DNA from: a virus
Strand: one strand, 5' to 3'
IMG/VR virus record: IMGVR_UViG_3300020477_001849
Location: 1-64,000 of that record
DNA: 64,000 nt
Position 1 is the stretch's first letter. The number at the start of each line of letters is the position of its first letter. Positions 1 through 30,260 of the stretch are shown one piece after another. The notes under the pieces are model-generated. The model saw only the letters and a list, made by a program, of their open reading frames with translations, had not been told where the DNA came from and ran no database searches. The position numbers were made by a program, and so were the translations under genes.

Positions 1-298
1 ACCCGCCATTATTATATTGTATATATGTATCGGATCCAGCTGGTGATCCTGAGCCACCGCTTGAAGCTATCGTAACCTGGCCATTCGACGCAGACGTTAT
101 TGTAACATTTGATCCTGCGACAAGATATGAAGCGCCGGCCTGCGTGTGGTGGATAGATCCAGACAAGGTACCAGTCAAAATTAGGGTACCAAAAAAATTA
201 TGAAGATCATCCGCTGAGTTCCCAAACCACGTTGAGCCGGTCGATGCCAGAACAGTTGCTCTCCTACCATTTGTTTGATCACCCACTATAATAGGCAT
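1..298 (-). CDS. Tail fibre/virion protein, N-terminal part (runs off window start; absent from the ORF track)
   Basis: ATG at 298 preceded by GGAGG; reads MPIIVGDQTNGRRATVLASTGSTWFGNSADDLHNFFGTLILTGTLSGSIHHTQAGASYLVAGSNVTITSASNGQVTIASSGGSGSPAGSDTYIQYNNGG with no stop; PAGSDTYIQYNNGG matches PAGGSNTQVQYNNGG in the neighbouring 780-aa gene. Confidence 0.8.
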   Translation of the reverse strand, partial: MPIIVGDQTNGRRATVLASTGSTWFGNSADDLHNFFGTLILTGTLSGSIHHTQAGASYLVAGSNVTITSASNGQVTIASSGGSGSPAGSDTYIQYNNGG

Positions 299-335
299 TG
301 CATTCCTCCCATTGATACCAGCATAAATAGTATAC

Positions 336-371
336 AAAAAAGAAAAGGAGGGCCAAAAGACCCTCCTTTTC
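336..371 (-). terminator. Rho-independent terminator after the 780-aa gene
   Basis: Minus strand GAAAAGGAGGGTC-TTTT-GGCCCTCCTTTTC followed by TTTTTT, about 30 nt past the stop at 401. Confidence 0.85.
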
Positions 372-400
372 CATCCCTTAAAGAAGGAATTAATTAGAGA

Positions 401-2743
401 TTATATCTCCCATTCAACGTCATCGTCGCCTGCACGAGGGGGGACACCCTTCATACCAGCGTCTCGACCTGTTGGGTCAATCTCTTCCATAACCATCCGG
501 AACCACTTACCAGTGTAGTTGTTCCTAAAAGTGATCATGGAATTTTCCTCGACGAGGGTCCAGTTTCCTCTGTCATTGCAGAGGTGGAGGTCGCCCGTAT
601 AGATGTTGCCAAAGCGGACGGAGTCACTACCCAGGTTAACACCTTCATCGGCCGATGGGATGATTGAACCAGCCGTCACAGTGATGTTATTGCTTCCAGC
701 ATCCAACGTCAAACCAGCCTCAGAACGAACCACAACACCAGAACTAGTATTACCATCTTCGCCGATGGTAATCGTCCTGTTACCGTTAGTACCGATATTG
801 ATTGCCTGAGCAACGTCATCATTACCGATGCTAATTGCACCAGCTGAAGAGTTAAGCTCCAGAACTCCATCGGCATCAAGAAGTAGCGTATCATCAGAAT
901 CAAGCGTAATATCGCCTGTACCTGTTGAAGCTAGAGCGATACCACCGGTACCGGCATTAAATGCTAATGCAGTTGCACCGGTCACGTTACCCATGGTGAT
1001 TGTACGAGCAGCAGCACCTGTACCAACGCTGATTGCTTGAGCAACAGCGTCAGCACCGATGCTAATTGTACCACCAGAAGACTCAATCGCGATCGCTCCA
1101 GAAGAATCTACCTGGATACCACCTGCGGTAGCATTAATATCAATCGCATCAGCACCAGTACCTGCAGAGTCAAGCTTCAACACTTGAGCACCACCTCCAG
1201 AAACGCCAATTGTCAGATCCTTTGCCGAAGCAGAAACAGTAATGTCAGAATCATCATTGGCATCAATTGAAAGAGCACCAGCAACGTCAACGTCCATGCC
1301 ACCAGCAGTAGCATTGATATCGATAGCATCAGTACCTGTACCTGCAGAGTTCAACTGAAGAACTTGGGCGCCACCACCAGAAACGGTAAGGGCAAGGTCT
1401 TTAGCTGCGGTACTGACTGTAACATCAGAATCATCAGCACCATTAATCGAGAATGCAGCAACAGCATCAATAGTGATACCGGCTGCAGAATCGATATCGA
1501 TACCACCAACTGCATTCATATCAATTGAATCTGTGCCCGTACCTTGAGATTCTAGAATCAAACTAGAAGCTGTTGCACCCGTTACTGAAATGGTGAGGTT
1601 CTCATCTGCCCCGTCAGAAGCAACCGTGATATTAGAAGCAGCTGCACCGTCTACAGAGAACGCCCCAGTTGTATCTACAGCAATACCGCCAGTTCCAGCA
1701 TCAACATCAATACCACCAGCAGCATTATCAGCTTGAATTCTAACGGCAGCAGCATCAGCTTCACCACCAGTTAAGTTCAATGAACCAGCAGTAGCATCTA
1801 CTGTAAGATCACCAGTACTAGCTGACCATGTTGAAGCAGCTCCAGCAGTAAGCGTAATAGCTCCTGAAGGTGTGACAGACAATGAAGTCATACCAGTCTC
1901 AGTAACTGCACCAGCACCATCAAACTCCCATGTACCAGTATCATCACCCAAAGATGCGCCACCATTACCTACAACAGTCATAGTACCTTCGGCGGTCAGG
2001 TTTGTAGCTAGTGCTGAATCAATATCGATACCACCCGCAGCGGCGTTGATTTTAATGGCCGAGGCATTGTTACCCTGGGTATTTGTGACAGTAATTCTCT
2101 CACTGGTGCCTGCATTTGTCATCATAGAAATTGCGCTGGCGTCGTTGAAACTAGACTCTAGTGTGATGGCGGCGGTGGCATCTGTTACAAGCTTGGTAAC
2201 ATTTGTACCATCAGTCGTCATGTTGGATACACCGCCCAATGAACCACCGTTGTTATACTGTACTTGAGTATTAGAACCTCCAGCAGGTGTATTACCATCA
2301 GATCCTGATAGTAGTGCATACTGCTTGCCATTTTTCATCATGACATGAAGTGAACCTGTTGCAGCATAAAAGAGAACGTCATCGAGATGCATTCCTGCGG
2401 TACTTAGACCTGCACCGAGGGATGCAGCTCCTCCGACCATCAGCTGAGTAGCTGCATAGCTGGTACCAGCACCTACATGTCTCTCACCGAGGAAAAATGC
2501 ACCAGAAACATTTAAGTCGCCGCCAAAGACAGCAAACTGCCTTTTGTTTAGCATACCATGTGTTGCACTTCCCTGCGCGCCCGAAACAAAGAATGTAGCG
2601 CCTTGCGGTGCTGAAGGGAGGTGGAGGTCACTACCTGCTGCTCCACCTGCGTAACCAGGATCACCAAATTTGACTGATCCTGTGACACCAATGAAATTAT
2701 CATCTACATTGGATCCTGTAATATTATTAACGAATAAAGCCAT
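401..2743 (-). CDS. Tail fibre-like virion protein with internal ~60-aa repeats
   Basis: G/A/S/T/D-rich beta repeats; C-terminal IYTGDLHLxNDRGNWT domain shared with the 1147-aa gene; GGAGA RBS. Confidence 0.7.
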   Translation of the reverse strand: MALFVNNITGSNVDDNFIGVTGSVKFGDPGYAGGAAGSDLHLPSAPQGATFFVSGAQGSATHGMLNKRQFAVFGGDLNVSGAFFLGERHVGAGTSYAATQLMVGGAASLGAGLSTAGMHLDDVLFYAATGSLHVMMKNGKQYALLSGSDGNTPAGGSNTQVQYNNGGSLGGVSNMTTDGTNVTKLVTDATAAITLESSFNDASAISMMTNAGTSERITVTNTQGNNASAIKINAAAGGIDIDSALATNLTAEGTMTVVGNGGASLGDDTGTWEFDGAGAVTETGMTSLSVTPSGAITLTAGAASTWSASTGDLTVDATAGSLNLTGGEADAAAVRIQADNAAGGIDVDAGTGGIAVDTTGAFSVDGAAASNITVASDGADENLTISVTGATASSLILESQGTGTDSIDMNAVGGIDIDSAAGITIDAVAAFSINGADDSDVTVSTAAKDLALTVSGGGAQVLQLNSAGTGTDAIDINATAGGMDVDVAGALSIDANDDSDITVSASAKDLTIGVSGGGAQVLKLDSAGTGADAIDINATAGGIQVDSSGAIAIESSGGTISIGADAVAQAISVGTGAAARTITMGNVTGATALAFNAGTGGIALASTGTGDITLDSDDTLLLDADGVLELNSSAGAISIGNDDVAQAINIGTNGNRTITIGEDGNTSSGVVVRSEAGLTLDAGSNNITVTAGSIIPSADEGVNLGSDSVRFGNIYTGDLHLCNDRGNWTLVEENSMITFRNNYTGKWFRMVMEEIDPTGRDAGMKGVPPRAGDDDVEWEI

Positions 2744-2928
2744 TATTTTCTCCCATTGTTTTTAGTATTTTGCTTTAAAGTTATGAAAAACTAAACTACA
2801 AAACCGAACAAATTCTACGTACAATTACATAACACACAACGGTGAACATAGTGACGTACAGGTAAATAATGAACGATACGATATGCTAACAAACAGACGA
2901 TATTAAATATATCGCCGGGGCTCAAACA

Positions 2929-3165
2929 TTATGAATTAGTTATCATTCCTCGCAGCATTCGAATAAAGCTGTCGTATAAAAAGCACTCAGACGATAGAAA
3001 TTCCAATGACAGAGATTTCGCATCTGCATCTTCGTCATCAAAAAGGAAAATATATTTACCAGAATGCTTATCGGTAGACGCATCTATTATTTTCTTTCCC
3101 TTCATCAACAAAAATGCAGCAATTGCCATATCATGTGTTTTGTAAGTGTTAACACTATTTTTCAT
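2929..3165 (-). CDS. Small DUF5659-like protein
   Basis: YKTHDMAIAAFLLMKG...GKYIFLF pattern resembles DUF5659 phage proteins (recognised by eye). Confidence 0.55.
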   Translation of the reverse strand: MKNSVNTYKTHDMAIAAFLLMKGKKIIDASTDKHSGKYIFLFDDEDADAKSLSLEFLSSECFLYDSFIRMLRGMITNS

Positions 3166-3238
3166 CGCTTAGCACCTTAAAAGTGACTTATTAATCCTTA
3201 AATCACTTGCTTGAATATTTAAAAAACCACCATGGAGC

Positions 3239-6200
3239 CTAATCATCATCTTCAAGGGGTTGTAGAACCATCTTGTATTTTTTTCCAGTTGTGTTATTTA
3301 CTACACATAAATATTCAAGTTCTTCGACTATAGTCCAATTACCGCGATCATTTTTAAGATGAAGGTCACCAGTATAGATATTTGCCCAGCGATTTGTATC
3401 GGACCCAAGATCATATGTCGTGTCAGCAGAGGGATATATACTACCTGCAACATTTAAATTACCTTTAAACTTTGAGCCACCAGCGGAGCCAGTAAAATAT
3501 AGCGTGCCTGGTGAATTTATCTCCACACTCCTGCTTGATACTCCTCCTGAGCCGGTTAAAACTAATTGTCCTGCGGCACCGTCTCCTAGATCCAATAGGT
3601 CTATTATCCCCACGTCTGAACCAAGCTTTAGTGCAGACCCTGCGAATATTTTTACAGGCCCATGGGGATTTCGCACAATTGCAACATCACCAGAAGCCGG
3701 CTTAAGCTCCATTGTTCCAGTAACCTCAATACCTCCGTCAACCTTAAGTGGTGACCCTCCGTAGAGTGTCCCTGATACAACAACATCACCAGCAAAAACA
3801 GATGTACCGACTGTGCTTGAGATACCACGAGATCCAGCTGTTCCTGAAACAAAGAAATTAACATCTGTTCCCATTCCGAGATGTTGTCCGTATACGTCTG
3901 ACTGGAATGGGTAAACTGCAACCTGGTTTGCCTTTATCGGTAATGCATTAACGGTACCGTACCACCGGCCACCATATAAAGATCCGGATATTAGTGTATC
4001 GCCACCGAAGACAGACGTTCCAGGACTTGATGTACCCCTTGAGCCAATAGCACCTGATATGAAGAAAGATATGTCAGACATCTCTCTTGGTTGCATAGCT
4101 CCCACATGCATTCCGGAACCTGATAATAATACTATACGCCTGTTATCCTGGGTGTAGTATCCCCCCAGACGTACAATCTCTTCTAGGGATGAACCACCAT
4201 TGCCAAAAGTCCTAAAGACTAAATCATTTGTTGATTCTTCATGTACGATAGAGCTACCGACCACGTTCGCGGCTCCGGCAAACTCTAGGGTCGAACTGTT
4301 TGTTTGTGCACTTCTCTGTAGCCTAATTGCAGGGCTTGAATCTTTTAAATGCACTAGCGAACTCGGGTTATTTAGGCCGATGCCAATCCTGTCAGAGCTA
4401 CCCTGAACATAAAGGGTATTATTACCGCCGCTTGTCTTAACTTGAAAATCGACATCTCCGCCGTCGCCGACCGTGACAATATCTTGGGTAGATTCTTGCA
4501 TAGTCAGTAAAGTCTCACCACCAGCCGCAAATGTTATCTTATCACCCTCAAAGCGCATATAAGTATTTGCATCATTTTTGTGGTAAAGATATTCCCCCAA
4601 ATCCATATTGCCGCCGACAGACAACTTATATGAAGGTGTGCTGGTGCCAATTCCGACCTTGCCGTCAGTAGTAACAACAAACTGACTACCGACAGAAGAA
4701 TCAGATAAATTAACAGCCAGGGTTCCAGATATTGCAACATCACCACCGAAGACAGATGTACCACGAACCGTAGTATCTCTAGAGTCAACCGCGCCTGATA
4801 CAAAGAAATTGGTGTCTGTAGCATCCCACTCATTCCCAGAAGATGGTGAAGAGCCTGCGCCTGACAATATGAAAAATTTGGGGGTATTTCTATCAATCCT
4901 TAGCTTGGGATAAACAGTAGTAGTTGCTGCAGCGTCTAGATTAAGCTCGTTAGCACTACCATCATATAAAAACCTAAAGCCATAAGCACCGGTACCACCG
5001 AATTCTTGACCCTGGCCAGGACTTAACTCTAGTAAGCTAAAAGAAGAATTTTTATTTAGGCCAGCCCTAATAGATGCTGTAACGTCATGGGCTGGTGAAG
5101 GTCCTCCAGGTCCTAGCCTTATATTATGGCCGTATGCTGTCAGGCTTTGAGAAACAATAAGCGATCCGGATACCATTAGTGAGCCAGTCACTGTCTCATT
5201 TACTTCTACTACATATTTTTCAGCATAAAGTGTACCGCTTACAACAACATCACCACCAAAGAGTGATGTCCCCTTGGTTGAACTTCCACGAGAACCGACG
5301 GATCCTGATACGAAAAAATTAATATCAGAAAATGAAGATTCATCCAGGCTTGACTTTGCCCCAGAACCTGATAGAATAAACACCTGGGATGTACTACCAT
5401 CTCCCTTAATGTCCAATGTACCGGATGGTGTTGATGTCCCTATTCCTACTCTATCTGTCGGCGTGGTTAACCTGACAACTGTACCGCTATCAGTCCATCC
5501 TCCCCCGAATGGCATGCCGAAAGAATTATATGCTGTGCCACTAACAAATATGTCTCCCCCGAAAACAGAAATACCCTTTGACGCGTCACCCGAAGTTACC
5601 CCTCGGCCTCCAATGGCACCTGACACGAAAAAGAATATGTCACCGCCGTCAGAGGTATCTTCATTTCCTTTTGAATATTGGGAGCCTAGCTTGAGTTGAT
5701 CTGCTGAGGAATCTACAAATACGCCGTACCCTTTATTTTGGGTCTTAGCTATGAAATCAACGTCTTGGTCACTGGAGGGATTTACAACTATGTCTGCTTC
5801 TGAGCCATCAAGCTGTATTAAATTTGTTGTAGAGCCCCCATGGTTTGCCCTAACATATATGTCTTTGTCTTGTGTCGTATTCTCAATGTAAACATCATCG
5901 GATGATAGTGATATCTTTAGGTCATCCCCAGCACCAGCCGTTATTCCTGCATCATTTCGAAATCGAACAATCGACTCGCTTCCATCGAGTTGTACAAGTT
6001 CAGTTGACCCTCCTCCATCGGAGTCATTAATAAAAAACTTTAAATCTTTGTCTGCGGTCCCATTTGCTATATTGACATTGCCTGATGATACTGAGACTCC
6101 AAAATCCGAGCTAGCTCCAACAGATAGGCCGGTATCAGAATTAATCTGCATTGCCTGGCCGTCGGTAGTGATTGTTGCATTTGCTTGCTGGATTGCTCTG

Positions 6201-6682
6201 CCACTAGTACCATTCGTTGTAACGACAACGTTGTCAGCGTCAATCTGGCTAGCCATTGTAACATTGCCAGTTCCCGCTCCACCAGATAATTCAATAGAGA
6301 CTGACTTATTCGAAGAATTTCCAGTTAATGTGACGGAATCGCTGGCCGTTAATGTCAGAAGTGTGTTATTTCCGGAAAATGTTATGCTGGTATCTCCAGC
6401 AACCGTGCCACCATCGGCGGCAAGGCCGATTGCCATGACCCCGCCAAAAAGTGGAACTCCCCCGAATTTAAGTGTACCTCCCTCATTGTACAGCCTATCA
6501 GATGTATTGGCAGGCTTGGTGTGGGGAGGCATAATCAAACCACGAGGACCCATGGCTGAGGAGCTTAAACCGATCTGTAGCTCTGGTACAGATATAATCC
6601 GGCGCACATTGCCAGATTGATCATCCTTAAGAGTTAGGAATGTATTTTTAAGAAGCTGGTCTTTATCTGCTTTTTTTGGCAT
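3239..6682 (-). CDS. Long tail fibre-like virion protein
   Basis: Repeated (R/K)(V/I)GIG motifs typical of phage fibres, five copies of an FFVSG...FGGD..VSGTL module, C-terminal IYTGDLHLKNDRGNWT domain. Confidence 0.75.
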   Translation of the reverse strand: MPKKADKDQLLKNTFLTLKDDQSGNVRRIISVPELQIGLSSSAMGPRGLIMPPHTKPANTSDRLYNEGGTLKFGGVPLFGGVMAIGLAADGGTVAGDTSITFSGNNTLLTLTASDSVTLTGNSSNKSVSIELSGGAGTGNVTMASQIDADNVVVTTNGTSGRAIQQANATITTDGQAMQINSDTGLSVGASSDFGVSVSSGNVNIANGTADKDLKFFINDSDGGGSTELVQLDGSESIVRFRNDAGITAGAGDDLKISLSSDDVYIENTTQDKDIYVRANHGGSTTNLIQLDGSEADIVVNPSSDQDVDFIAKTQNKGYGVFVDSSADQLKLGSQYSKGNEDTSDGGDIFFFVSGAIGGRGVTSGDASKGISVFGGDIFVSGTAYNSFGMPFGGGWTDSGTVVRLTTPTDRVGIGTSTPSGTLDIKGDGSTSQVFILSGSGAKSSLDESSFSDINFFVSGSVGSRGSSTKGTSLFGGDVVVSGTLYAEKYVVEVNETVTGSLMVSGSLIVSQSLTAYGHNIRLGPGGPSPAHDVTASIRAGLNKNSSFSLLELSPGQGQEFGGTGAYGFRFLYDGSANELNLDAAATTTVYPKLRIDRNTPKFFILSGAGSSPSSGNEWDATDTNFFVSGAVDSRDTTVRGTSVFGGDVAISGTLAVNLSDSSVGSQFVVTTDGKVGIGTSTPSYKLSVGGNMDLGEYLYHKNDANTYMRFEGDKITFAAGGETLLTMQESTQDIVTVGDGGDVDFQVKTSGGNNTLYVQGSSDRIGIGLNNPSSLVHLKDSSPAIRLQRSAQTNSSTLEFAGAANVVGSSIVHEESTNDLVFRTFGNGGSSLEEIVRLGGYYTQDNRRIVLLSGSGMHVGAMQPREMSDISFFISGAIGSRGTSSPGTSVFGGDTLISGSLYGGRWYGTVNALPIKANQVAVYPFQSDVYGQHLGMGTDVNFFVSGTAGSRGISSTVGTSVFAGDVVVSGTLYGGSPLKVDGGIEVTGTMELKPASGDVAIVRNPHGPVKIFAGSALKLGSDVGIIDLLDLGDGAAGQLVLTGSGGVSSRSVEINSPGTLYFTGSAGGSKFKGNLNVAGSIYPSADTTYDLGSDTNRWANIYTGDLHLKNDRGNWTIVEELEYLCVVNNTTGKKYKMVLQPLEDDD

Positions 6683-6699
6683 AAAAACTCATCTCCTTT

Positions 6700-9600: not shown

Positions 9601-10590
9601 TGCATTATCTGAAAATGGAGCCCTAGATATCCCTGCCCTCCAGTCCGCGTCCCCGGTCCGGTCTATAACAGGGTAATCGTATAACATCACATCGTCCATC
9701 TCCCTTCGCCTTAAACGCGGCGGGGTATCGAGAAAACCAGATGATAAATTATATGCGCCTAACCTATATGAATTATTTAACGCTTGGATCTCTGTGGGGG
9801 TGAGAACCCTTGAGAAAACTGCGAAGTCTGAAACCCTACCGTCAAGTTCATCGGTTCCATCTTGCTGGCCACCGACATACAGCCTACCGGCGTGGTATGG
9901 TACCATACCGACGTAACTAGAATTATTGATATACCCTGCAGATACATCAACCCCATTCATGTATATTTTCATGCCGTTTGCTGCAGAGGCGTCGGAGACA
10001 GCCGCTGCGGCATTACCGTCGTATGTAAATACCAAATGCATCCAATAACCAGGTGCAACAATGGCAGGTGACACAACGACAGCTGTGGCGGAGCTGGCGC
10101 TGCTGTCCTCTAGCTTAAAATATACTTTATTATCGAGATGACTAGCATATGCCCTATACTCATTGTCGTCCGATGCTCCACCGCTTTTACCAAAAAGATA
10201 TTGAATACCAGTGATATTGTCGAAGTTTACCCACATGCTGACGGAGAAAGGGCGGTCCGAAGTTACTGTGGGGGTACCCCCATTTCCCAAAGAGCTGAAT
10301 GACAGTAGGCCGGAGGCAGCAGTTGCATATGCACTCTGGGCCGATGAATCGTTACATCTCACAGCGCGATATATAAAACCTCGATGAGGTGCAAACTGGA
10401 CCTCAGATGTAGGTGCAGAATTTTCGTATGAAACAGTCGAGATCTTGTTGGGCCCTGCATCTGTTGGTGTTGTGGCTGTCATTCGTAACCACATTACCAA
10501 GTTGGAATATGCATCAACGCCATAAACGTTTCCGCGCCAGTCCTTAAATGCCCTATTAAGATCTATCGTTTTTGTACTAGTCGCCTTCAT
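6700..10590 (-). CDS. Virion structural protein with N-terminal LamG/concanavalin A-like domain
   Basis: FSVSMWVN...WMHLVFTYDG...KIYMNG...DGRVSDFAVFSRVLTPTEI is a LamG signature; lies in tail/baseplate module. Confidence 0.7.
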   Translation of the reverse strand: MKATSTKTIDLNRAFKDWRGNVYGVDAYSNLVMWLRMTATTPTDAGPNKISTVSYENSAPTSEVQFAPHRGFIYRAVRCNDSSAQSAYATAASGLLSFSSLGNGGTPTVTSDRPFSVSMWVNFDNITGIQYLFGKSGGASDDNEYRAYASHLDNKVYFKLEDSSASSATAVVVSPAIVAPGYWMHLVFTYDGNAAAAVSDASAANGMKIYMNGVDVSAGYINNSSYVGMVPYHAGRLYVGGQQDGTDELDGRVSDFAVFSRVLTPTEIQALNNSYRLGAYNLSSGFLDTPPRLRRREMDDVMLYDYPVIDRTGDADWRAGISRAPFSDNATVMFTSASSGTTPDRLIQYPEMMPLSGFYYNDMTSFSTAPYFNMHQSDRFVATPNVSSSIRIAGSVPQTSYIGQSTFYGIDMRRQFGSSFGLSPFDESKVYLSSSNSPSFPNFWSTGTEESILPGFSMPLRDKTIIEIKSTPLVESKVCFSTGTTIVTNGSSYPSSNAGAAAGINSGILYYAWDSRKFEIIGDLTTGSNVDYMSGRTHQVTSSYLVCPQNATYYSYTWDPSTGGPGNLNRQWDGQGAPSSSPCGFPLASKFNATASHYLSMKNYISQPFLLEKVVLEASGAFGGPGYELQSDRPRDSASTTTFILMRSSQPDPWLNFSSTASTPIRFLDRNNYSAGWTGNRWARFEQTQDQDIIWYNRVGVFSTDTNGWDTVSEFSASSPIPFQMADTWVPAPTDGGTAGDKSSFTGSVRMEAPCRMMSVAPATNRPLSGRSWWNWVLDGNTYASAPNKGDWFLPGNYYGGTSLFSSVSPRKLSRTVAGGQPVAQQFAVAGTPGLGYPIFNKVVDVSPYLLFPNDNLVLGVIRQMTPTNVSSAGSVSYMQVTESDIAGFPDHITGRDFSSKIATGEIKLTLYGSLVKGGSEFHFGSNQPLTSLAVHEDVHYDSGPILDQFLVEKDISYAGGYLDEVYVGTLRPKKPYGTGRGYIATRRVAGRTSMGTQGVTGSLLRGVKLRDSTERYYDSLLPDINQYFSKRTISGSVFHSRNMGGSSTGGFKRLGSKRAYYLSGALELNGTPGTSFGNFQWKGNASLPWPYLGDPERDYRDARSVMVFSASSDNSKISFIKGYSRVKEAMFRYGLNRSYPGTILDKATNSTTPVTIRLSDGKFMSGATGFRYGIVSTSPLYSEAVFRYDRYGQLRDMLEQRHDTRFWNAAPDVVSPKGDSPIKIIFVDRASDSPISPSQTMSQNLSYFATSSVPYFDGRAVERGDDPDKIQQVTVTEILDPVNMSPPGTGIPGLT

Positions 10591-11597
10591 TACTTCTTAA
10601 ATCCCCCGAAAGCTAAAGAGTCAGTACCCATTTTCCACCCTGGTGCATTGGATGTTGAGTATGTAAAACCTGCAGTTGTCGAAACACATTTCGAAGGCTG
10701 GCCGTAGAAACTCTCTATCTTTGATCCCGTCATTGCTGCAACTGCATTTGCTATCGGCGTTGTTCCCATAAATGTTGGCCCGAACCCATCCTTTGAATAT
10801 ACATACTCATACCTCCACCCTACATTGACGCTTGTCTCTACAAAATTACTTGTAGTTGAAGCAGCAGGTACCTTTACAACCACATCATTAAAGACGCTGC
10901 TTATCTTCTTTTTTGCCTCTATTGACTTAAGCGAAAATGAATTCATGTCATTATAAGGAGGAATATTTGCCTCCTTTAAATCTACGTACTGTGCAACTTC
11001 GCCGTCAGCATCGCCAGGGGTCATATAATATAACTCAGCCTTAACCCCCCTAAAAAATGCTGCCTTAAGCTTTCCTGATGGGAATGAAGGAGGTAGGTTA
11101 TTAAACGAAAAATCCACAAGTCTGCGGATGGGGAATGGCTCAATGACTCCATCCATCTGATCTAAGGAACGCAGGGAAGAATACCTAACAGCCAGTGGTA
11201 ATGTACCTGAATTTTCCGCGGAGGTGAGGGTGATCATCTTATCAAGGGTGCCACTAACTATTGCATTTTTTTCTACGAACGGAGTTCCTTCTTTAAAGCC
11301 TGTATCGGACTCGCCAAAAACGTCATGAACCCACAGATGATTAATAATTGTCTTGTATCCAGGGGGTGCATTCAAACGCTCACGGGGACTACCTGCAGCC
11401 TGATCGTCGAATGCTTTAAATGTTAGGGAATTATAGTCTGTGACAACAGGTTCGACAGATCCAGAAACCAATATTGCATAGGGCGTACCAACTGAGATTC
11501 TAGGAAATAGAGATCTATGCAGCTGGCCAAATGTCCTTATACTGACGCCTTGACGAAATTTGTCTATCGTTCCGCTTAATGTTCTGGTTGTTGGCAT
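10590..11597 (-). CDS. Hypothetical virion protein
   Basis: 335-aa ORF with GGGAG RBS, coupled (TAATG overlap) to the downstream structural gene. Confidence 0.55.
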   Translation of the reverse strand: MPTTRTLSGTIDKFRQGVSIRTFGQLHRSLFPRISVGTPYAILVSGSVEPVVTDYNSLTFKAFDDQAAGSPRERLNAPPGYKTIINHLWVHDVFGESDTGFKEGTPFVEKNAIVSGTLDKMITLTSAENSGTLPLAVRYSSLRSLDQMDGVIEPFPIRRLVDFSFNNLPPSFPSGKLKAAFFRGVKAELYYMTPGDADGEVAQYVDLKEANIPPYNDMNSFSLKSIEAKKKISSVFNDVVVKVPAASTTSNFVETSVNVGWRYEYVYSKDGFGPTFMGTTPIANAVAAMTGSKIESFYGQPSKCVSTTAGFTYSTSNAPGWKMGTDSLAFGGFKK

Positions 11598-11610
11598 ATT
11601 ATCTCCCTAT

Positions 11611-14600
11611 CTATGAACCTTCGACATCGGCGGTGAGTGTATCCAGGTCTAATAGTACCGCGGTTGGTAGAGGTATGGCACCTTGCGGTAAGTATGCTGG
11701 TGCAAAATTATATTGCATCTTGGCACGCTCAAGTATATGAGATTCAATAGTAAATTGTACCCCCAAGAATTCTGTCTTTTTTGGAAGTAATTGCTCTATC
11801 ATAATTCCTACAGAGTCGTCAAACCACCTAAAAAACTCAAAGAATTCTTTAATCTGGATCCTACCCGTTAGTCGATTGAAATAGATATCACGCAATCTCC
11901 TAAGATCTGGATAGCTAGATGCGAACAGTAGCTCTGGATTTCCTAGGGAATTCTCAAAATCTTCCAAGGTGCCAAAGATCTTAATAATATCTTCATTCAA
12001 TGCCTGGACAAATGAATTCTCAATTAAAAAACGTGTGTCGTCCCAAGGCTCTTCGTTCGGGGGAATTTGATATGCAGGGGCACCCTGTGTTCTTTGATCA
12101 TCAATATTCTCTTGATCCAGGAAGCCCCTCACCCTAATCTTATTAAATGAGCTTCTTTCATCAAATTTAGGATCAATCGTGCTGTAGTATGTTAACCACG
12201 GTTTAATAATTTCTCGTTGAGGCACAAAGCCTGCACCTAACATCATAAACCTCTGCCTCGACGGATAGACGGGGATACCTCTGCTACCAGTAAGGTTCCA
12301 TGGAGCACCGTATGTGCCCGTTAGGGATAAATTTTGAGTAAAATCAAAAAATGACAGCTCACCGTTAACAGAAGATTGCGTGACTATCTGGTCCATACTA
12401 ACGTCTAATCGTAATCTCTCAAATGAACCCGTGGGTGTATGAATAAAATTAAAGTGTTTATTTGGGTATACTGTACCCAAAGATTCAGGGTCCCTTATAT
12501 GTGCCTTAACCTCCTCGCTGGTTAATGCCTTTGACCAAAACCTTATTTTCCCTATCTTACCTGAGAAGTTTGTCGACCTTGCAGTCTCAGATGAATACCT
12601 AGAATCGTTTAAGCCGGGAACATAATATCTGATTGCATTACTTTCTATTCCATTCTGGAGGCTTTGAGATCCAATCGCCAAAAAACACCCGCGGTCGATC
12701 CCGAACGCACTCGCGAAACCATCACCTGCTGATGAACATGACCACCAATCCCACACGCTAACGCTAGTGCCATATTTTGGCACTGTTGAATTTACTGATT
12801 TTGTCTCACCAAAAAAAGAGCTTGTATGATAAAATGATAAAATAGAGCCGTTATTTTGCGAGCCGGCATTTATAAAATATGATGCCGTCGGTGCATGCTC
12901 GGCAGTGCGATTAGGCTGAATTTGTTGCGGTGCCACACGCCCGAAGGATATATGCCACTGTTGCCCATCAAATATATTGACGCCTGTCATAACTAGCTTA
13001 AATGAATTGTCAGGATCAGTCGCATTCTTGATAGACCGACCCCCAGGTCGTACATGCAACTGTAAAGATGATGTTATATTCTCGCTAATAGAGCCAGATA
13101 TAGCTACACAGTTTAATAGTGCATATTGCCCTTTATTGTATGCAAGCTTCGCAGAAGTCATTCCTAACATGCCACCTGTCATATGAATTCTCATCAAACT
13201 TTGGGTCGTATGATGCCGAACTCCTGGCAGCGGAGACTCTAAAAATTGATAAAGACCCTCGACGGTAAATGACCCGCTTGTAAACAGCCCGTCTTGAGGG
13301 TGAGTAGACCTCCCATGGGGGGGATAGAGCTTCTTATTTGCCATATTCTCAGGATTGATTGTTGGCATTCCTACCTCAAGCCTTGCACCTGATAGGAATG
13401 TTGACATTGCATGCGGAATTTTCTTATTAAAACCGGTGGGGTCATTCGACGCCGGTAAATGAGCCGTATTCGATATTATAGACCCAGAAAAGTCTGCCAT
13501 TCTTAGAATTGATCTCTTTGGCCTATACGTCTCTATTAACTCTCTAGACCGAGCACCGCCAAATTCCCTAAACTTGAAATTACTCTCAGGATCTATTCCG
13601 CATGAGCGTATAAGCGACTTAATGGAGTGTATTGTGCCCTTACTTTGTGTAATATTCCTAAGGTTTACAAGAACTCTTCGCCACATTTGGTTCTGGACAA
13701 ACCTCAAGCTATTTTTACTAAATTGGGCGTTTACTAGTAAGTCTTCTCCCTCTATGTACTGTTTAATTTGAGCATTTGTATAAAAGCTTGGAAGCGGAAA
13801 CCCATAGTATTGCCCTAAGAATGTCAAGAACTGGTTTGCGATCGTCCTATCTTCTTCATACTTAACAGTTAATAACTTGCCGAACTGGTCGGTGAACATC
13901 TTTAGTTCATCAAAATATGAAGACCACATCAACATCATCAATGTGATTATTTGAGGAGAACCTATCTTACCGCCACCGGGAAAATTAACAGATCCGGTTG
14001 CATAAGGTTTTCCTACATCACCCTCCTCAGTCTTAAATCCTTGAAATTCTTGAGACTCCAGAAGGTAATGCCTAGGAATTAACCTAGTAATTAAGTTGGG
14101 ATTATTAAAATCATAGTTGCTAGCAGAAAATAGAAGCCTTTGATTTAAGCTGGCGACTGCATTCTCAGTCGGAAACAAGATCGGATTAACATCTTTTCTC
14201 TCATTCTTTAGGGGCATTGTAAGCCCGACTGTAGCTGTCTCTGATCCTCCCTCACCTCTATTTCTTGCCCTAAGAGATGAAGTAAAATTAGATATTTTTG
14301 AATGCAGCGAATTCCCTGAACTGTCTAGGACAATAAAATTGTTCGTATACGACCCCGTGGGTTCATTGAACTTGAAATACAACCTAAGATCTTTCGAGGG
14401 AAAAACATTTTTAAATTGGAATTTTCTTTGTTGTCCCGGGGACCTAAATTCATGCCAAACCCTAAATTCGTCTATTGCTCCTGAAAATGTTTGGAGAGGT
14501 GTAAAGTATGAACTCGCTCCCGTTGATGATGTTAAAACAGTGGATCCTGACCCAATTATAAAGTCGGAGGATTCAAATGGCAATCCTTCAAATTTATATG

Positions 14601-15423
14601 ATGTTGCGGACTGCTCCTTGAACACGCCGCTTTGGTACATCTTTATCCTGTGTTGACCAGACCTCCTATCTAATGACAGACAAACATTATTGAATTTGCC
14701 TTTAGGCAGTGACATACTAGAAACTAGATTTGCTGTTCCTGACGAAACATGCATGAATAATGAAACATTCTCCTCGGCGATGTCACTACGCTCTATGCCT
14801 ACTGTCAATGCACCCTCTGAAGAAGACTTTTGTATAATGACCTGCTCATCATGTGTATGTAAAGGCACCCATACGGTCATCTCGAATGTTAACGTTTGTA
14901 TACCTGTTGGGCCTATTATTACCTGACCAGATTCATCTTTTGAGAGTGAAGGAATGAGAGATCCAGCAGCATCTTTAACTTTTATATACGTTCCTGACGA
15001 CCCACCTGGAACTTGTCCCGTGTTAGTTCCTGAAAAGTGGAGGAATCCGAGATGTTTTGGAAACTGCTTGTATACCCAATGCTCGAACCCTGATAGGTCG
15101 TCTAAAAATTTCTCTAAGTCCTTTCTGTCTCCGTCAAATGGAAACCGATTAATAACCTTGTCAAAAGCGATATTAACCTTAGACTCAGCTGAATTATAAA
15201 ATGTATGATTTTCAAATTTGGAGAAATCAATTGCCAGCTGTTGCGTCGACTTTATAGGCCCGGAGGGTGCATCATACCGAAATGACGAAGTGCTTGAAAT
15301 ATTAGAGGAAGACAACGACGCGCCAACCTGACCTCTAAGAATATTGGCATTATAGGTCATTCTTTTTAGGGTCTCGACTGAGAACAAGTCCCTCTGCTTA
15401 AATAACGGATTTGTCTTGGCCAT
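11611..15423 (-). CDS. Baseplate wedge/tail protein with LamG-like domains
   Basis: FSGAIDEFRVW and FSGKIGKIRFWSKAL LamG ends; central SKGTIHSIKSLIRSCGI resembles the P2 gpI/T4 gp7 wedge motif; downstream of baseplate J. Confidence 0.65.
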   Translation of the reverse strand: MAKTNPLFKQRDLFSVETLKRMTYNANILRGQVGASLSSSNISSTSSFRYDAPSGPIKSTQQLAIDFSKFENHTFYNSAESKVNIAFDKVINRFPFDGDRKDLEKFLDDLSGFEHWVYKQFPKHLGFLHFSGTNTGQVPGGSSGTYIKVKDAAGSLIPSLSKDESGQVIIGPTGIQTLTFEMTVWVPLHTHDEQVIIQKSSSEGALTVGIERSDIAEENVSLFMHVSSGTANLVSSMSLPKGKFNNVCLSLDRRSGQHRIKMYQSGVFKEQSATSYKFEGLPFESSDFIIGSGSTVLTSSTGASSYFTPLQTFSGAIDEFRVWHEFRSPGQQRKFQFKNVFPSKDLRLYFKFNEPTGSYTNNFIVLDSSGNSLHSKISNFTSSLRARNRGEGGSETATVGLTMPLKNERKDVNPILFPTENAVASLNQRLLFSASNYDFNNPNLITRLIPRHYLLESQEFQGFKTEEGDVGKPYATGSVNFPGGGKIGSPQIITLMMLMWSSYFDELKMFTDQFGKLLTVKYEEDRTIANQFLTFLGQYYGFPLPSFYTNAQIKQYIEGEDLLVNAQFSKNSLRFVQNQMWRRVLVNLRNITQSKGTIHSIKSLIRSCGIDPESNFKFREFGGARSRELIETYRPKRSILRMADFSGSIISNTAHLPASNDPTGFNKKIPHAMSTFLSGARLEVGMPTINPENMANKKLYPPHGRSTHPQDGLFTSGSFTVEGLYQFLESPLPGVRHHTTQSLMRIHMTGGMLGMTSAKLAYNKGQYALLNCVAISGSISENITSSLQLHVRPGGRSIKNATDPDNSFKLVMTGVNIFDGQQWHISFGRVAPQQIQPNRTAEHAPTASYFINAGSQNNGSILSFYHTSSFFGETKSVNSTVPKYGTSVSVWDWWSCSSAGDGFASAFGIDRGCFLAIGSQSLQNGIESNAIRYYVPGLNDSRYSSETARSTNFSGKIGKIRFWSKALTSEEVKAHIRDPESLGTVYPNKHFNFIHTPTGSFERLRLDVSMDQIVTQSSVNGELSFFDFTQNLSLTGTYGAPWNLTGSRGIPVYPSRQRFMMLGAGFVPQREIIKPWLTYYSTIDPKFDERSSFNKIRVRGFLDQENIDDQRTQGAPAYQIPPNEEPWDDTRFLIENSFVQALNEDIIKIFGTLEDFENSLGNPELLFASSYPDLRRLRDIYFNRLTGRIQIKEFFEFFRWFDDSVGIMIEQLLPKKTEFLGVQFTIESHILERAKMQYNFAPAYLPQGAIPLPTAVLLDLDTLTADVEGS

Positions 15424-15426
15424 GTC

Positions 15427-17034
15427 TTAATCCACCCTAAATCTCACATTTTTAGCTTCTTGGATTAATTCTAACCCAGCTTCCTTGATTAGAAAATCAA
15501 TTGTATATGTCCTACCCTTTGGTAGATAATCTACGTATGTCTCAAAAAACATGCCTTTGGAATCGCTAGATAGCCTAGTAGCATTATTTTTCTCCTCAAA
15601 TGGTACCCATACATAATCATCATCTATATCTCTAATTCTGTAATACACTTCTTCTAAAATAACACTCTTTAAATTGTAGGGTAACCTCGCAGCCTTTTGA
15701 TTCGCAGCAAAATCACGTACAAAAACCCTAAACATTACTTTTTCATTGGACTTATAGGAATTTTTTGCATTTGTGACTATCATATCAAGCCGCTTGGGTG
15801 CAATATTAAATGATGTAGGGTCATTTCTACCCACAGTTAAACTACCGGTATAGTAACCCACTTTCCCATCAACAGAACCCCATATTTCATCAAAGGTTAT
15901 TGATCCACTGGCTATAACAAAATCTATGACCCTTGTACTACCGAATATGACACCGGTGTCTTGGCTAGATATAGCAAATGATGCAGAGTATACACCTGTC
16001 ATGTAGTTGAATATCCTGGTATCAGCTCCAGCTGCAGATATAGAATTATTTAGAACCTTTGTTCCAGCCTGGTGCTGAGATGCTGAAATTTGCTTACTGT
16101 ATGAACCTGATTCTATTTTTAGAATCATGCAATCCGTACCAGTGACTTCAGAGGCAGCAGTACCAGACAATATGCTCGCAGGAATTCCTCTTTTAAAATT
16201 CTTAAGAAATACGGACCCGGTTAAATCAAAAAATAGATTTTGGTGTTGATCTTTTATGGTGTCATCGTACGTAACAACAAGTCTAGGAATTTTTGTCTTA
16301 TCTCTTACATGCCGACTTGCAAACCTCTTAACAAATCTAGTTTTTGCATCATTTTCTTCTGAGCCTGTGAATGACAATCTCCACCCGCAGTCAGGTAACA
16401 CCCCCGCAATGGTTGCTGAGACAATTGTCGTCACATCCATAGACAGGTTCTCGCTTCCCTGCTTAAATAACTGTGAAACCCCTAATCCTGTGGTACCGTT
16501 TCCATCATTTAAATTTCCGGAAACTATAATATCAATATCAGCAGGGTATCCGGTGCCGGATGTCTTGTCAATAGTGCCTTGCGCATTTGCCCCAGAAAGA
16601 TACCATGCAACATTTGATGCATTTTTATAAGATGCAGTAACAAAATTTGCAACGTCTAAATCAGAAAATGACACTACGTTCTTGCCAATCCCTTCGTCAA
16701 ATGATTGTGAGAGTGGAAAAAGCATTAATGTAAAATTAGTGGGGGTTACTTGGCCACCCATAATATCGAAAAGCTCTAATGTACACTTGAAGTCAGAGCC
16801 ATCTAGGTTCAAATTTTCCCTTGATAACTTTTCTATTCTCTCAAAATCAAATTTTATTAGCCCTCGTGATAACTCTACAGGATTATCCACACCGGTCAGA
16901 AATGATTCATCATAAAGCTTAAACAAATCGATGGTGGAAGCTTTTCCCGTATTAGCATCTGAGGCACTAAACGCATTCGATATAATCTTATTCGTGATAT
17001 ATGTGTCTTTGCTAGCAGTTAATGTAAGATACAA
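15427..17034 (-). CDS. Virion/baseplate-associated protein (DNRLRE-like N-terminal domain)
   Basis: ASKDTYI...SRGLIKFD...PRLVVTY pattern; between baseplate genes. Confidence 0.55.
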   Translation of the reverse strand: MYLTLTASKDTYITNKIISNAFSASDANTGKASTIDLFKLYDESFLTGVDNPVELSRGLIKFDFERIEKLSRENLNLDGSDFKCTLELFDIMGGQVTPTNFTLMLFPLSQSFDEGIGKNVVSFSDLDVANFVTASYKNASNVAWYLSGANAQGTIDKTSGTGYPADIDIIVSGNLNDGNGTTGLGVSQLFKQGSENLSMDVTTIVSATIAGVLPDCGWRLSFTGSEENDAKTRFVKRFASRHVRDKTKIPRLVVTYDDTIKDQHQNLFFDLTGSVFLKNFKRGIPASILSGTAASEVTGTDCMILKIESGSYSKQISASQHQAGTKVLNNSISAAGADTRIFNYMTGVYSASFAISSQDTGVIFGSTRVIDFVIASGSITFDEIWGSVDGKVGYYTGSLTVGRNDPTSFNIAPKRLDMIVTNAKNSYKSNEKVMFRVFVRDFAANQKAARLPYNLKSVILEEVYYRIRDIDDDYVWVPFEEKNNATRLSSDSKGMFFETYVDYLPKGRTYTIDFLIKEAGLELIQEAKNVRFRVD

Positions 17035-19386: not shown

Positions 19387-19521
19387 TCTCTGCTCTATAG
19401 AGTTGTCGTTATGGATTAAATATGTACTCTAGCAAATCCTATAACGAATAGAGCTTAAATAAAACACGCGTAGTGATATATACGCTAAAAGATATACAAA
19501 TATCTTAAGATATGACGGCTA

Positions 19522-23468: not shown

Positions 23469-23768
23469 TTATTCCTCAGTAGGTGGCGGCGCCTCGTCTA
23501 CACGGGTTATTGAATTTGCAACGTATAAAATTGCATCTCTACTTTTCTCTATATCAGTTAAAACTCTACGTATTTCTGGACTATCGTAAAAAAGAGGTGT
23601 TTGTAGCACATTGTACATGCTGCTATATCTCTCATCCAAAATATCAAGTGAGCTCTCTATTGCATCTTGAAACTTTAGAATCGTTAACCCAAATCTTATT
23701 GCGTAAAATGTAGAGATTATAGATAATAAAGATAAAAAAGCGACTATGAGGACAATAGGCCAGCTCAT
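23469..23768 (-). CDS. Hypothetical protein with N-terminal transmembrane helix
   Basis: WPIVLIVAFLSLLSIISTFYAI hydrophobic stretch followed by a helical soluble part. Confidence 0.6.
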   Translation of the reverse strand: MSWPIVLIVAFLSLLSIISTFYAIRFGLTILKFQDAIESSLDILDERYSSMYNVLQTPLFYDSPEIRRVLTDIEKSRDAILYVANSITRVDEAPPPTEE

Positions 23769-30202: not shown

Positions 30203-30232
30203 CTCAGAGACCTCTTGCCTAATGATTTATTA

Positions 30233-30260
30233 ATTTTAAGCACTTTCAAGTATTTTTACA
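30233..30260 (-). promoter_or_regulatory. Putative promoter TGTAAA-N16-TAAAAT upstream of neuB
   Basis: Same architecture as four other intergenic sites. Confidence 0.4.

What the first reader, a model, noticed from the sequence alone, without database searches (positions are those of the whole stretch)
1..17034. Candidate glycosylation sequon: hydrophobic-[ST]-[GA]-[ST] is strewn through unrelated outer virion proteins
Seen: the 535-aa protein has about 14 [ST][GA][ST] triplets by manual count (LTAS, FSAS, VTAS, TSGT, VSAT, FTGS, LTGS, LSGT, VTGT, ESGS, ISAS, YSAS, ASGS, YTGS), all in its first ~400 aa, where a rough composition estimate gives about 3. The non-homologous 1147, 1296, 1270 and 335-aa proteins show the same motif many times (VSGS, LSGS, FTGS, PTGS, FSAS), whereas I find only about 2 in baseplate J and about 1 in PrkA. 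Inference: one short Ser/Thr motif in different folds looks like a selected modification site rather than a structural repeat; next to a 30 kb export-less glycan island, the simplest model is an O-glycosylation sequon that coats the virion.
Basis: partly seen in the sequence, partly recalled or inferred. Interest (0 to 1): 0.8.

Follow-up and report, generated by a model that had tools for sequence, protein, structure and literature searches.

The report
Selected Ser/Thr motif on phage tail proteins
The outer tail proteins of this uncultured marine jumbo phage and its relatives carry several times too many copies of a short hydrophobic-Ser/Thr-Gly/Ala-Ser/Thr motif; the motif is conserved as a unit and is found in phages that encode a particular pair of sugar-transferring enzymes, so it may be a sugar-attachment tag, but no chemistry shows this.

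Summary
The counts are exact: 14, 16, 16, 18 and 5 triplets in the 535-, 1270-, 1296-, 1147- and 335-aa proteins. The excess over shuffles is strong in the 535-aa protein (5.9x, z 7.8) and the 1270-aa protein (3.3x, z 5.3). For the bare triplet the other proteins fall within control range. With the hydrophobic prefix the other four, pooled, reach 3.7x.

The excess depends on residue order and on a small middle residue. It is not a DNA-level signal. It is absent from the rest of the genome and from T4, Syn9, HTVC008M, T5, phiKZ and Ma-LMM01.

It holds across more than 140 relatives, starting at the first gene after baseplate J. Sites are conserved, the three positions are kept or lost together, and they lie in strand, turn, helix and loop of a confident model.

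Every relative with enough flank has the GT4 pair. Cultured phages with that pair (immuto, Mel-JY01, probably RM378) show the excess. LR756508 lacks GT4a and has no motif in its 535-aa homologue.

Not supported: a coat over the whole virion, and dependence on the 30-kb island, most of which is missing from a relative that keeps the motif. In the 1147-aa protein the motif is a structural repeat.

Glycosylation is plausible (about 0.4) but unproven. This scan has noted other sequon-like motifs on other phages; those forms are not enriched here.

The parts
15427..17034 (-). p535: first protein after baseplate J. It has a CBM96/DNRLRE-like N-terminal beta-sandwich, an inserted central domain (about residues 255-400, 8 motifs) and a C-terminal beta-sandwich with no motif. 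14 motif copies in all.
   Evidence: Counts and shuffles. AF2 model pLDDT 93.7. Fold matches. Family of 808 representatives. Site conservation. Unit covariation.
11611..15423 (-). p1270: Laminin_G_3-containing tail protein with 16 motif copies. Several sites are nearly invariant in relatives, e.g. T-S-G-S-[WF] at residue 716 in 41 of 41 sequences.
10590..11597 (-). p335: small tail-module protein with 5 copies (expected 1.8).
6700..10590 (-). p1296: Laminin_G_3-containing fibre protein with 16 copies (expected 8.4). This is within control range for the bare triplet, and permuted triplets are raised to a similar degree.
3239..6682 (-). p1147: fibre protein with 18 copies. Most lie in repeats of the form FF[VI]SG[ST]xGSRG...GTS[VL]F[GA]GDxx[VI]SG[ST]LY, so here the motif is part of a structural repeat.
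401..2743 (-). p780: fibre-like protein with 12 copies (expected 8.8, not significant). It shares a 66-residue C-terminal end with p1147.
17044..18897 (-). Baseplate J/gp6-like wedge protein. It marks the boundary: it is not enriched (2 copies; ratio 0.63 pooled over 80 relatives).
23765..24928 (-). GT4a: family-4 glycosyltransferase with an intact E-x7-E motif; candidate reader of the motif. Good homologues among cultured phages occur only in immuto and Mel-JY01. None is found in LR756508.
24931..26184 (-). GT4b: family-4 glycosyltransferase with an intact E-x7-E motif. It is 58-72% identical in the 80 closest viral loci. Homologues occur in immuto, Mel-JY01, LR756508 and RM378, with a weak one in TJE1.
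27095..27919 (-). PD-(D/E)XK nuclease. It travels with the GT4 pair as a cassette in immuto and Mel-JY01.

Best explanation
Hydrophobic-[ST]-[GA]-[ST] is a linear motif under selection in the distal tail proteins of a broad phage lineage. That lineage comprises an abundant uncultured marine jumbo-phage clade, Immutovirus and Microcystis phage Mel-JY01. The most likely mechanism is that a trans-acting enzyme reads the motif: the conserved soluble GT4a/GT4b pair would O-glycosylate one or both hydroxyls in the cytoplasm before or during tail assembly, with the small middle residue giving access. Further glycosyltransferases and the variable sugar-supply genes of the island would then extend or vary the glycan.

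Shown: the enrichment, its specificity, its conservation, its restriction to the distal tail, and its co-occurrence with the GT4 pair.
Inferred: that a glycosyltransferase reads the motif, and that any sugar is attached at all.
For: 1. The excess is specific to residue order and residue class and is not a nucleotide signal: 65 distinct 9-mers among 69 copies, and Ser codon families as in the background.
2. It is a family trait. 111 full-length p535 homologues at 32-64% identity average 9.3 copies vs 2.4 expected. Over 80 loci the observed/expected ratio is 0.96 for upstream genes, 0.63 for baseplate J, 4.9 for p535 homologues, 3.6 for p1270 homologues and 2.3 for further downstream proteins.
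3. The hydroxyls are conserved. At the sites S and T exchange freely, with few V, A or N replacements. Motif S/T are conserved 0.63 vs 0.43 for other S/T (p 3e-4), and 0.65 vs 0.44 in the p1270 family.
4. The three positions are kept or lost together. The median log2 of joint frequency over the product of marginals is 0.63, against 0.08 for other triples (p 9e-5). The effect is weaker in p1270 (p 0.04).
5. In the pLDDT-93.7 model the 14 sites lie in mid-strand, strand ends, a hairpin turn, a helix interior, a helix N-cap, a helix C-cap and loops. No single structural role fits all of them.
6. Analogous proteins of T4, Syn9, HTVC008M, T5, phiKZ and Ma-LMM01 lack the excess.
7. Co-occurrence with the GT4 pair. 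All 48 viral and 25 metagenome loci with at least 9 kb upstream carry GT4a and GT4b. For the prefixed motif the genome-wide ratio is 2.2-3.0 in G001, immuto, Mel-JY01 and RM378, against 0.7-2.0 in seven controls.
8. LR756508 shares the tail module but lacks GT4a. Its p535 homologue has no motif and its genome-wide ratio is 1.33.
9. Of the contig's ORFs, only baseplate J, p243, GT4a, GT4b and the PD-(D/E)XK nuclease are shared with both immuto and Mel-JY01 and absent from all controls.
10. Remote p535 and p1270 homologues keep the excess largely at other positions.
Against: - No chemical evidence for any modification exists.
- The co-occurrence is confounded by descent. G001, immuto and Mel-JY01 share a homologous tail module, so the GT4 pair and the motif may both simply be lineage traits. 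The two dissociating cases, RM378 and LR756508, are single genomes.
- In immuto, Mel-JY01 and LR756508 the GT cassette lies 30-200 kb from the tail genes, beside a nuclease and replication or nucleotide-metabolism genes. That placement suits DNA or another acceptor equally well.
- The GT4 proteins show only generic GT4 similarity. They lack the marks of known protein O-glycosyltransferases.
- High positional conservation (up to 100%) is also what a structural role predicts.
- In p1147 and immuto gp214 the motif sits in plain sequence repeats.
- Marine T4-like phages without the pair show a mild excess of the prefixed motif (1.5-2.0).
- Solvent exposure of the sites was not measured.
Confidence: 0.4

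Rival explanations
1. Lineage-specific structural idiom with no modification. A small residue flanked by two hydroxyl residues and hydrophobic neighbours is a favoured building block of the beta-rich tail proteins of this lineage: tight turns, strand ends, helix caps, close sheet packing. It would have spread by descent and by module exchange within the lineage's fibre gene pool. The glycosyltransferases would then serve another acceptor.
For: - Sites are positionally conserved at 29-72% in p535 and up to 100% in p1270.
- Several sites have ordinary local explanations: a capping box T-G-S-E-E at 223, Gly at a helix C-cap at 377, a hairpin S-G-S at 309.
- p1147, immuto gp214 and RM378 p078 carry the motif inside sequence repeats.
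- Collagen-like Gly-X-Y repeats produce it in Mel-JY01 and P-SSM2 fibres.
- All strongly enriched genomes except RM378 share a homologous tail module.
- The GT cassette is not tail-linked outside the marine clade.
Against: - One tripeptide is favoured in strand, turn, helix and loop alike.
- The excess is absent from beta-sandwich and fibre proteins of seven other phages, including T4 Hoc, gp12, gp34 and gp37.
- The three positions are lost together more often than neighbouring triples.
- T is rarely replaced by V or I, and S rarely by A or G.
- The excess persists at new positions in remote homologues.
- LR756508 shares the fold, but its p535 homologue has no motif.
Confidence: 0.35
2. The motif is read by another trans-acting factor. 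Candidates are a Ser/Thr kinase (the phage encodes PrkA/YeaG), a different hydroxyl modification, or a fibre chaperone or assembly factor that binds the peptide.
For: The arguments for a reader of a linear motif do not specify glycosylation. That set is well conserved in G001. The contig also encodes a GroEL-like protein.
Against: PrkA, YeaH and SpoVR have no homologue in immuto, Mel-JY01 or LR756508, although immuto and Mel-JY01 show the excess. The GroEL-like protein matches only immuto. No other enzyme shared with both immuto and Mel-JY01 and absent from the controls was found apart from the two GT4 proteins and a nuclease.
Confidence: 0.1
3. The paired hydroxyls form flat polar patches that bind host surface polysaccharide or ordered water. 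The motif would then be a ligand-binding feature of receptor-binding proteins.
For: - The motif is restricted to distal, host-facing tail proteins.
- In strands flanked by hydrophobic residues, both hydroxyls would point to one face (inference from the pattern).
- The p535 N-terminal domain resembles carbohydrate-binding modules.
Against: About half of the p535 sites are not in strands. Sites are scattered over several domains, not arrayed. High conservation across phages that must have different hosts is not expected for receptor-contact residues.
Confidence: 0.1
4. Chance or composition: Ser-, Thr- and Gly-rich fibre proteins give many such triplets.
For: The fibre proteins are rich in S/T (17-21%) and G/A (13-30%). 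p780, p1296 and p1147 lie within control range for the bare triplet.
Against: p535 z 7.8 and p1270 z 5.3 against global and local shuffles. Family-level z above 20. Replicated in more than 140 homologues.
Confidence: 0.03

Closest known systems
Virion O-glycosylation of mycobacteriophages (Freeman et al. 2023; known here only through its citation in PMC12619734, since the paper itself is not held)
   Same: Phage-encoded soluble glycosyltransferases are proposed to modify the phage's own structural proteins in the cytoplasm.
   Different: There the glycans sit on C-terminal ends of capsid and tail-tube subunits and were shown chemically. Here the candidate sites are a dispersed, internal, conserved tripeptide on distal tail proteins only; nothing is shown chemically; and no ORF outside the tail region is enriched in the 267-kb relative.
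GtfA/GtfB two-protein O-GlcNAc transferase acting on serine-rich repeat adhesins of Gram-positive bacteria (PMC6973325, PMC7948813)
   Same: A pair of adjacent GT-B-type proteins; cytoplasmic O-glycosylation of Ser/Thr; acceptor stretches in which Ser alternates with small residues such as Ala (the acceptor pattern is my own knowledge).
   Different: Neither phage GT4 has the DUF1975-type domain. Both keep E-x7-E, so neither looks like an inactive partner. The acceptors are folded globular or fibrous proteins with single dispersed sites, not long low-complexity repeats.
Autotransporter heptosyltransferases TibC/Aah acting on TibA and AIDA-I (my own knowledge, not read here)
   Same: Cytoplasmic O-glycosylation of Ser/Thr at short strand-loop-strand elements of beta-rich adhesins, recognised partly by local structure. 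The window also encodes a GT9-type (heptosyltransferase family) protein and heptose-like supply genes.
   Different: The GT9-like gene is absent from immuto and Mel-JY01, which share the motif excess. Membership of the TibC family was not tested.
Chlorovirus PBCV-1 capsid glycosylation by virus-encoded cytoplasmic enzymes at non-canonical sites (my own knowledge)
   Same: A virus carries its own glycan-building genes without export machinery and decorates a structural protein at an unusual short motif. PBCV-1 B736L is among the weak GT4b matches (3oy2, E 0.0011).
   Different: The chlorovirus glycans are N-linked, on the capsid of a eukaryotic virus. Here the motif is O-type and on the tail.
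General protein O-glycosylation of Bacteroidota, sequon D-[ST]-[AILVMT] (my own knowledge)
   Same: A short Ser/Thr sequon followed by a small or aliphatic residue. The nearest cultured relative, immuto, has a Flavobacterium host.
   Different: That system works outside the cytoplasm, and its sequon is not enriched here (ratio 0.36-0.82).

Membership tests
Glycosyltransferase family 4 (Pfam Glycos_transf_1, retaining GT-B) for GT4a and GT4b | Match to PF00534 above the curated cut-off | tested here: met
   GT4a 39.0 bits and GT4b 52.4 bits against a cut-off of 26.4. Both also match phrog_2170, glycosyltransferase.
Glycosyltransferase family 4 (Pfam Glycos_transf_1, retaining GT-B) for GT4a and GT4b | E-x7-E catalytic or sugar-nucleotide-binding motif | tested here: met
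   EGFGLPILE at residue 273 of GT4a and EGFGLSTLE at residue 288 of GT4b.
GtfA/GtfB protein O-GlcNAc transferase pair | DUF1975-type N-terminal or inserted domain in both subunits | tested here: not met
   Pfam scan lists only GT4-type families for both proteins.
GtfA/GtfB protein O-GlcNAc transferase pair | One catalytic subunit plus one inactive substrate-binding subunit | tested here: not met
   Both proteins keep E-x7-E.
Protein glycosylation sequon (any system) | A glycan shown to be attached to the Ser/Thr of the motif | not testable with these tools
   Needs mass spectrometry of virions or co-expression products.
Protein glycosylation sequon (any system) | Motif enriched in substrates over composition and over non-substrates | tested here: met
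   Not enriched in the rest of the genome or in control phages.
Protein glycosylation sequon (any system) | Motif tracks presence of the transferase across genomes | tested here: inconclusive
   Co-occurrence is perfect in 73 loci and 3 lineages. RM378 is positive, and LR756508 (no GT4a) has a motif-free p535 homologue. But most positives are related by descent, and no close relative lacks the pair.
Protein glycosylation sequon (any system) | Acceptor hydroxyls are solvent-exposed | not tested
Bacteroidota general O-glycosylation substrates | Enrichment of D-[ST]-[AILVMT] | tested here: not met
   Ratio 0.36 in p535, 0.62 in p1270 and 0.80 in both families.
Mycobacteriophage-type virion glycosylation | Acceptors on capsid and tail-tube subunits | tested here: inconclusive
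   Capsid and tube genes are not in the window. In G001 no ORF outside the 25-90 kb tail region reaches z 4 for the bare triplet, but capsid and tube were not identified.
Other sequon-like motifs noted by this scan on other phages (S-[GA]-x-T, [ST]-G-x-T, S-G-hydrophobic) | Enrichment of those motif forms | tested here: not met
   Ratios 0-1.5 in p535, p1270 and their families; S-G-hydrophobic is depleted.

The most novel reading that the evidence does not exclude
An abundant, almost wholly uncultured lineage of large marine and freshwater myoviruses O-glycosylates its own distal tail proteins in the cytoplasm. The proposed sequon, hydrophobic-[ST]-[GA]-[ST], is not previously described, and the proposed enzymes are a conserved GT4a/GT4b pair. 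A hypervariable sugar-supply island would then diversify the glycan, much as O-antigen loci do. This would be the first sequon-directed glycosylation of phage receptor-binding machinery. It can be tested directly in three cultured phages: Flavobacterium phage immuto, Microcystis phage Mel-JY01 and Rhodothermus phage RM378.
Probability: 0.35. Interest if true: 0.8.

Novelty: new variant of a known kind. Interest (0 to 1): 0.6.

Why it matters
Tail fibres and outer baseplate proteins decide host range and are the main targets of host defences and grazers. Glycan-decorated tail proteins, in a lineage with more than 1,800 protein clusters in ocean metagenomes, would change how adsorption, host-range evolution and the many phage 'auxiliary' sugar genes are read. 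It would also give the export-less glycan islands of large phages an acceptor.

Even if no sugar is attached, a tripeptide kept as a unit in unrelated folds is a rare sign of a lineage-specific constraint and needs a structural explanation.

The practical gain of this work is that the question moves from uncultured contigs to three cultured phages, where one mass-spectrometry experiment can decide it.

Tried and rejected
- **Composition and local composition as the cause:** rejected for p535 and p1270.
- **General amphipathic-strand pattern [ST]-x-[ST]:** rejected, since only G or A in the middle is enriched.
- **Nucleotide-level motif or codon bias:** rejected.
- **Shared ancestry of the window's fibre proteins:** no BLAST similarity except a 66-residue C-terminal end shared by p1147 and p780. 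p1270 and p1296 both carry a Laminin_G_3 domain.
unlikely, because it is absent from immuto and Mel-JY01.
- **GtfA/GtfB membership:** rejected.
- **GT4 pair as an integral part of the tail module:** rejected. The adjacency holds only in the marine clade.
- **Dependence on the NeuB / heptose-like part of the island:** rejected.
- **Contexts of low-count p535 homologues (P0110, P0079, P0049):** A viral-contig scan with P0110 found nothing. The only low-count locus (L226) ends before the expected GT position.
- **Moraphage paper (PMC12619734):** it reports four core glycosyltransferase groups in another aquatic jumbo lineage, but I could not tie it to this clade.
- **Freeman et al. 2023:** not held.
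- **RM378's enriched ORFs:** could not be named.

Full report
**Setting.** The window is the first 64 kb of a 75.6-kb viral contig. CheckV rates it about 21% complete; a 267-kb relative (G001) is rated 78% complete. The contig is therefore a fragment of a jumbo myovirus. All genes lie on the minus strand. The transcription order is:
- a glycan island, about 54 to 28 kb
- a PD-(D/E)XK nuclease flanked by two truncated UDP-glucose-dehydrogenase-like genes
- GT4b, GT4a
- small ORFs, then p243, p121, p536, p405, p160
- a baseplate J/gp6-like protein (617 aa)
- p535, p1270, p335, p1296, p1147, p78, p780

Against composition shuffles, p535 has 14 [ST][GA][ST] where 2.4 are expected (z 7.8), and p1270 has 16 against 4.9 (z 5.3). 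The others are weaker: p1296 16 vs 8.4, p1147 18 vs 10.3, p335 5 vs 1.8, and p780 12 vs 8.8 (not significant). All remaining ORFs together have 35 against 31.7.

The excess has four specific properties:
- It depends on residue order. The seven other arrangements of [ST] and [GA] are not enriched in p535 or p1270.
- It needs a small middle residue. [ST]-aliphatic-[ST] has ratio 0.8-1.1.
- It is not a DNA signal. There are 65 distinct 9-mers among 69 copies, and Ser codon families match the background.

**Controls.** T4 baseplate, fibre, sheath, capsid and Hoc proteins have ratios near 1. Across Syn9, HTVC008M, T5, P-SSM2 and phiKZ, 74 proteins with an expectation of at least 2 have a median ratio of 1.39 and a 95th percentile of 2.23. 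The few outliers are low-complexity or collagen-like repeats, or capsid loops. For the bare triplet, then, only p535 and p1270 are exceptional.

**It is a clade-wide, conserved trait.**
- p535 belongs to a large uncharacterised family: 808 representatives at 50% clustering and more than 1,800 clusters at 90%, mostly from marine samples.
- 111 full-length homologues at 32-64% identity average 9.3 copies against 2.4 expected.
- Twelve of the 14 sites are occupied by the motif in 29-72% of homologues. Where residues change, S and T exchange, the middle residue stays G, A or S, and the flanks stay hydrophobic.
- In 41 p1270 homologues (median 41% identity) several sites are 80-100% conserved.
- Over 80 related loci the observed/expected ratio is 0.96 for upstream genes, 0.63 for baseplate J, 4.9 for p535 homologues, 3.6 for p1270 homologues and 2.3 for later proteins.
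- In the 267-kb relative the most enriched ORFs of the whole genome are these same genes and their downstream neighbours. This does not support a coat over the whole virion.

**Is it merely structural?** p535 folds with high confidence (pLDDT 93.7, pTM 0.90) into a CBM96-like N-terminal sandwich followed by Ig/FN3-like sandwiches. Its 14 sites lie in mid-strand (about 6), strand ends, a hairpin turn, a helix interior, a helix N-cap (T-G-S-E-E), a helix C-cap and loops. There is no single structural role.

Two further results point to selection on the motif as a unit:
- Motif S/T are more conserved than other S/T (0.63 vs 0.43, p 3e-4).
- The three positions are retained or lost together far more than other adjacent triples (median log2 joint/product 0.63 vs 0.08, p 9e-5). 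The p1270 family shows the same direction more weakly.

On the other side, p1147 carries the motif inside a clear ~45-residue repeat. The same is true of immuto gp214 and RM378 p078. In fibrous segments, therefore, the motif is also a structural repeat unit.

**Link to glycosyltransferases.** All 48 viral-contig loci and all 25 metagenome loci with at least 9 kb upstream carry both GT4 genes. Some contigs may be in both collections.

Most of the island is dispensable for the motif. Window 28.7-48 kb (NeuB, cytidylyltransferase, Rpe, SIS, dTDP-sugar genes and others) has no counterpart in G001, whose homologues keep the motif.

Among 50,697 phage records, good GT4b homologues occur in Flavobacterium phage immuto, Microcystis phage Mel-JY01 and the uncultured 484-kb phage LR756508. 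Weaker ones occur in RM378 and TJE1. Good GT4a homologues occur only in immuto and Mel-JY01.

In immuto and Mel-JY01 the cassette is nuclease, GT4b, GT4a, then further sugar genes. It lies among replication and nucleotide-metabolism genes, far from the tail genes. The adjacency to the baseplate is therefore peculiar to the marine clade.

Profile searches show that immuto, Mel-JY01 and LR756508 have remote p535 and p1270 homologues. They are distant kin of this clade, not independent lineages.

**Motif against transferase across genomes.** For the prefixed motif, genome-wide ratios are as follows:

| Genome | Ratio |
|---|---|
| This contig | 3.26 |
| G001 | 2.21 |
| immuto | 2.95 |
| Mel-JY01 | 2.26 |
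| RM378 | 2.65 |
| LR756508 | 1.33 |
| TJE1 | 1.0 |
| T4 (75-125 kb; 148-164 kb) | 1.01; 0.45 |
| Syn9 | 1.5 |
| HTVC008M | 1.97 |
| T5 | 1.4 |
| P-SSM2 | 1.75 |
| phiKZ | 0.7 |
| Ma-LMM01 | 1.35 |

In immuto the enriched proteins are tail spikes, tail fibres and the proteins after the baseplate wedge. In Mel-JY01 they are the genes after baseplate J.

Two cases separate tail ancestry from the transferase:
- RM378 has a GT4b-like gene followed by a weakly GT4a-like one, has no detectable p535 or p1270 homologue, and is enriched.
- LR756508 shares the tail module but has no GT4a. Its p535 homologue has no motif at all.

Each is a single genome. Remote homologues keep the excess mostly at different positions, with one shared site (T-G-S-L at residue 396).

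Of all ORFs of the contig, only baseplate J, p243, GT4a, GT4b and the nuclease are shared with both immuto and Mel-JY01 and absent from all controls. PrkA-YeaH-SpoVR, the GT9 gene and the GT2 genes are not shared.

**Verdict.** The motif is real, specific and selected, and it is probably read as a unit. O-glycosylation by the GT4 pair is the best single explanation (about 0.4). A lineage-specific structural idiom is nearly as likely (about 0.35). The transferases might instead serve DNA or another acceptor. Both GT4 proteins look catalytically intact, but they show only generic family similarity and are not GtfA/GtfB-like.

Earlier notes of this scan describe other sequon-like motifs on other phages. 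Those forms (S-[GA]-x-T, [ST]-G-x-T, S-G-hydrophobic, D-[ST]-aliphatic) are not enriched here.

Noticed in passing
window 3239-3436 and 401-670 (C-terminal ends of p1147 and p780): The last ~66 residues of the 1147-aa and 780-aa fibre proteins are 59% identical, while the rest of the two proteins is unrelated. This may be a shared C-terminal assembly or chaperone-type end domain.
   Followed up: no
window 3239-6682 (p1147 residues about 370-510 and 870-990): There are ~45-residue repeats of the form FF[VI]SG[ST]xGSRG...GTS[VL]F[GA]GDxx[VI]SG[ST]LYGG. Short strings of the same [ST]-G-S-hydrophobic type recur in immuto gp214 and RM378 p078.
   Followed up: partly
window 28770-48000 compared with G001 98.7-114 kb: The middle ~20 kb of the glycan island (GT2, NeuB, dehydrogenase, cytidylyltransferase, PhyH, nucleotidyltransferase-kinase, Rpe, SIS, HAD, dTDP-sugar genes, methyltransferases) has no counterpart in the 267-kb relative. 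Both edges are conserved: GT4b, GT4a, the UGDH-like gene and the nuclease on one side, and cupin, PfkB, GT9, GT4, GT2 and GT2(644 aa) on the other. This looks like a hypervariable cassette between constant ends.
   Followed up: partly
window 26215-27084 and 27912-28769: Two paralogous UDP-glucose/GDP-mannose dehydrogenase-like genes of only 285-289 aa (N-terminal and central domains, no C-terminal domain matched) flank the PD-(D/E)XK nuclease.
   Followed up: no
L286 (immuto 47.9-60 kb), L287 (Mel-JY01 81-90 kb): The cassette PD-(D/E)XK nuclease + GT4b + GT4a + further GT, methyltransferase and aminotransferase genes is conserved in two cultured phages. It sits beside replication and nucleotide-metabolism genes; in immuto it is near 7-deazaguanine DNA-modification genes. 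DNA or another non-protein acceptor for these transferases is therefore a live alternative. In Mel-JY01 the GT4b homologue is annotated as two ORFs.
   Followed up: partly
G001:C1:251395-253345: A thymidylate-synthase-family gene (330-aa frame) lies next to a sugar 4,6-dehydratase/epimerase-like gene in the 267-kb relative. Whether it is a ThyA or a pyrimidine hydroxymethylase, which would bear on DNA glycosylation, was not examined.
   Followed up: no
window 34207-37399, 48364-50319: SIS isomerase, a HAD phosphatase, a nucleotidyltransferase-kinase fusion, a PfkB-type kinase and a GT9 (heptosyltransferase-family) protein together look like an NDP-heptose-type supply with its transferase, in a phage with no LPS core to build on.
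   Followed up: no
window 15850-16270 (p535 residues about 255-395): The central domain of p535, which holds 8 of its 14 motifs, is an insertion. It is absent from the remote homologues in immuto, Mel-JY01 and LR756508, which keep only the N- and C-terminal domains.
   Followed up: partly
L122 (P-SSM2 18953-20746), L296 (Mel-JY01 635-3052): Tail-fibre-like proteins have long collagen-like Gly-X-Y tracts (G-P-x in P-SSM2, G-T-S/G-S-S in Mel-JY01). P-SSM2 also has HSFSGSGS-type repeats. These account for the highest raw motif counts among all phages scanned.
   Followed up: partly
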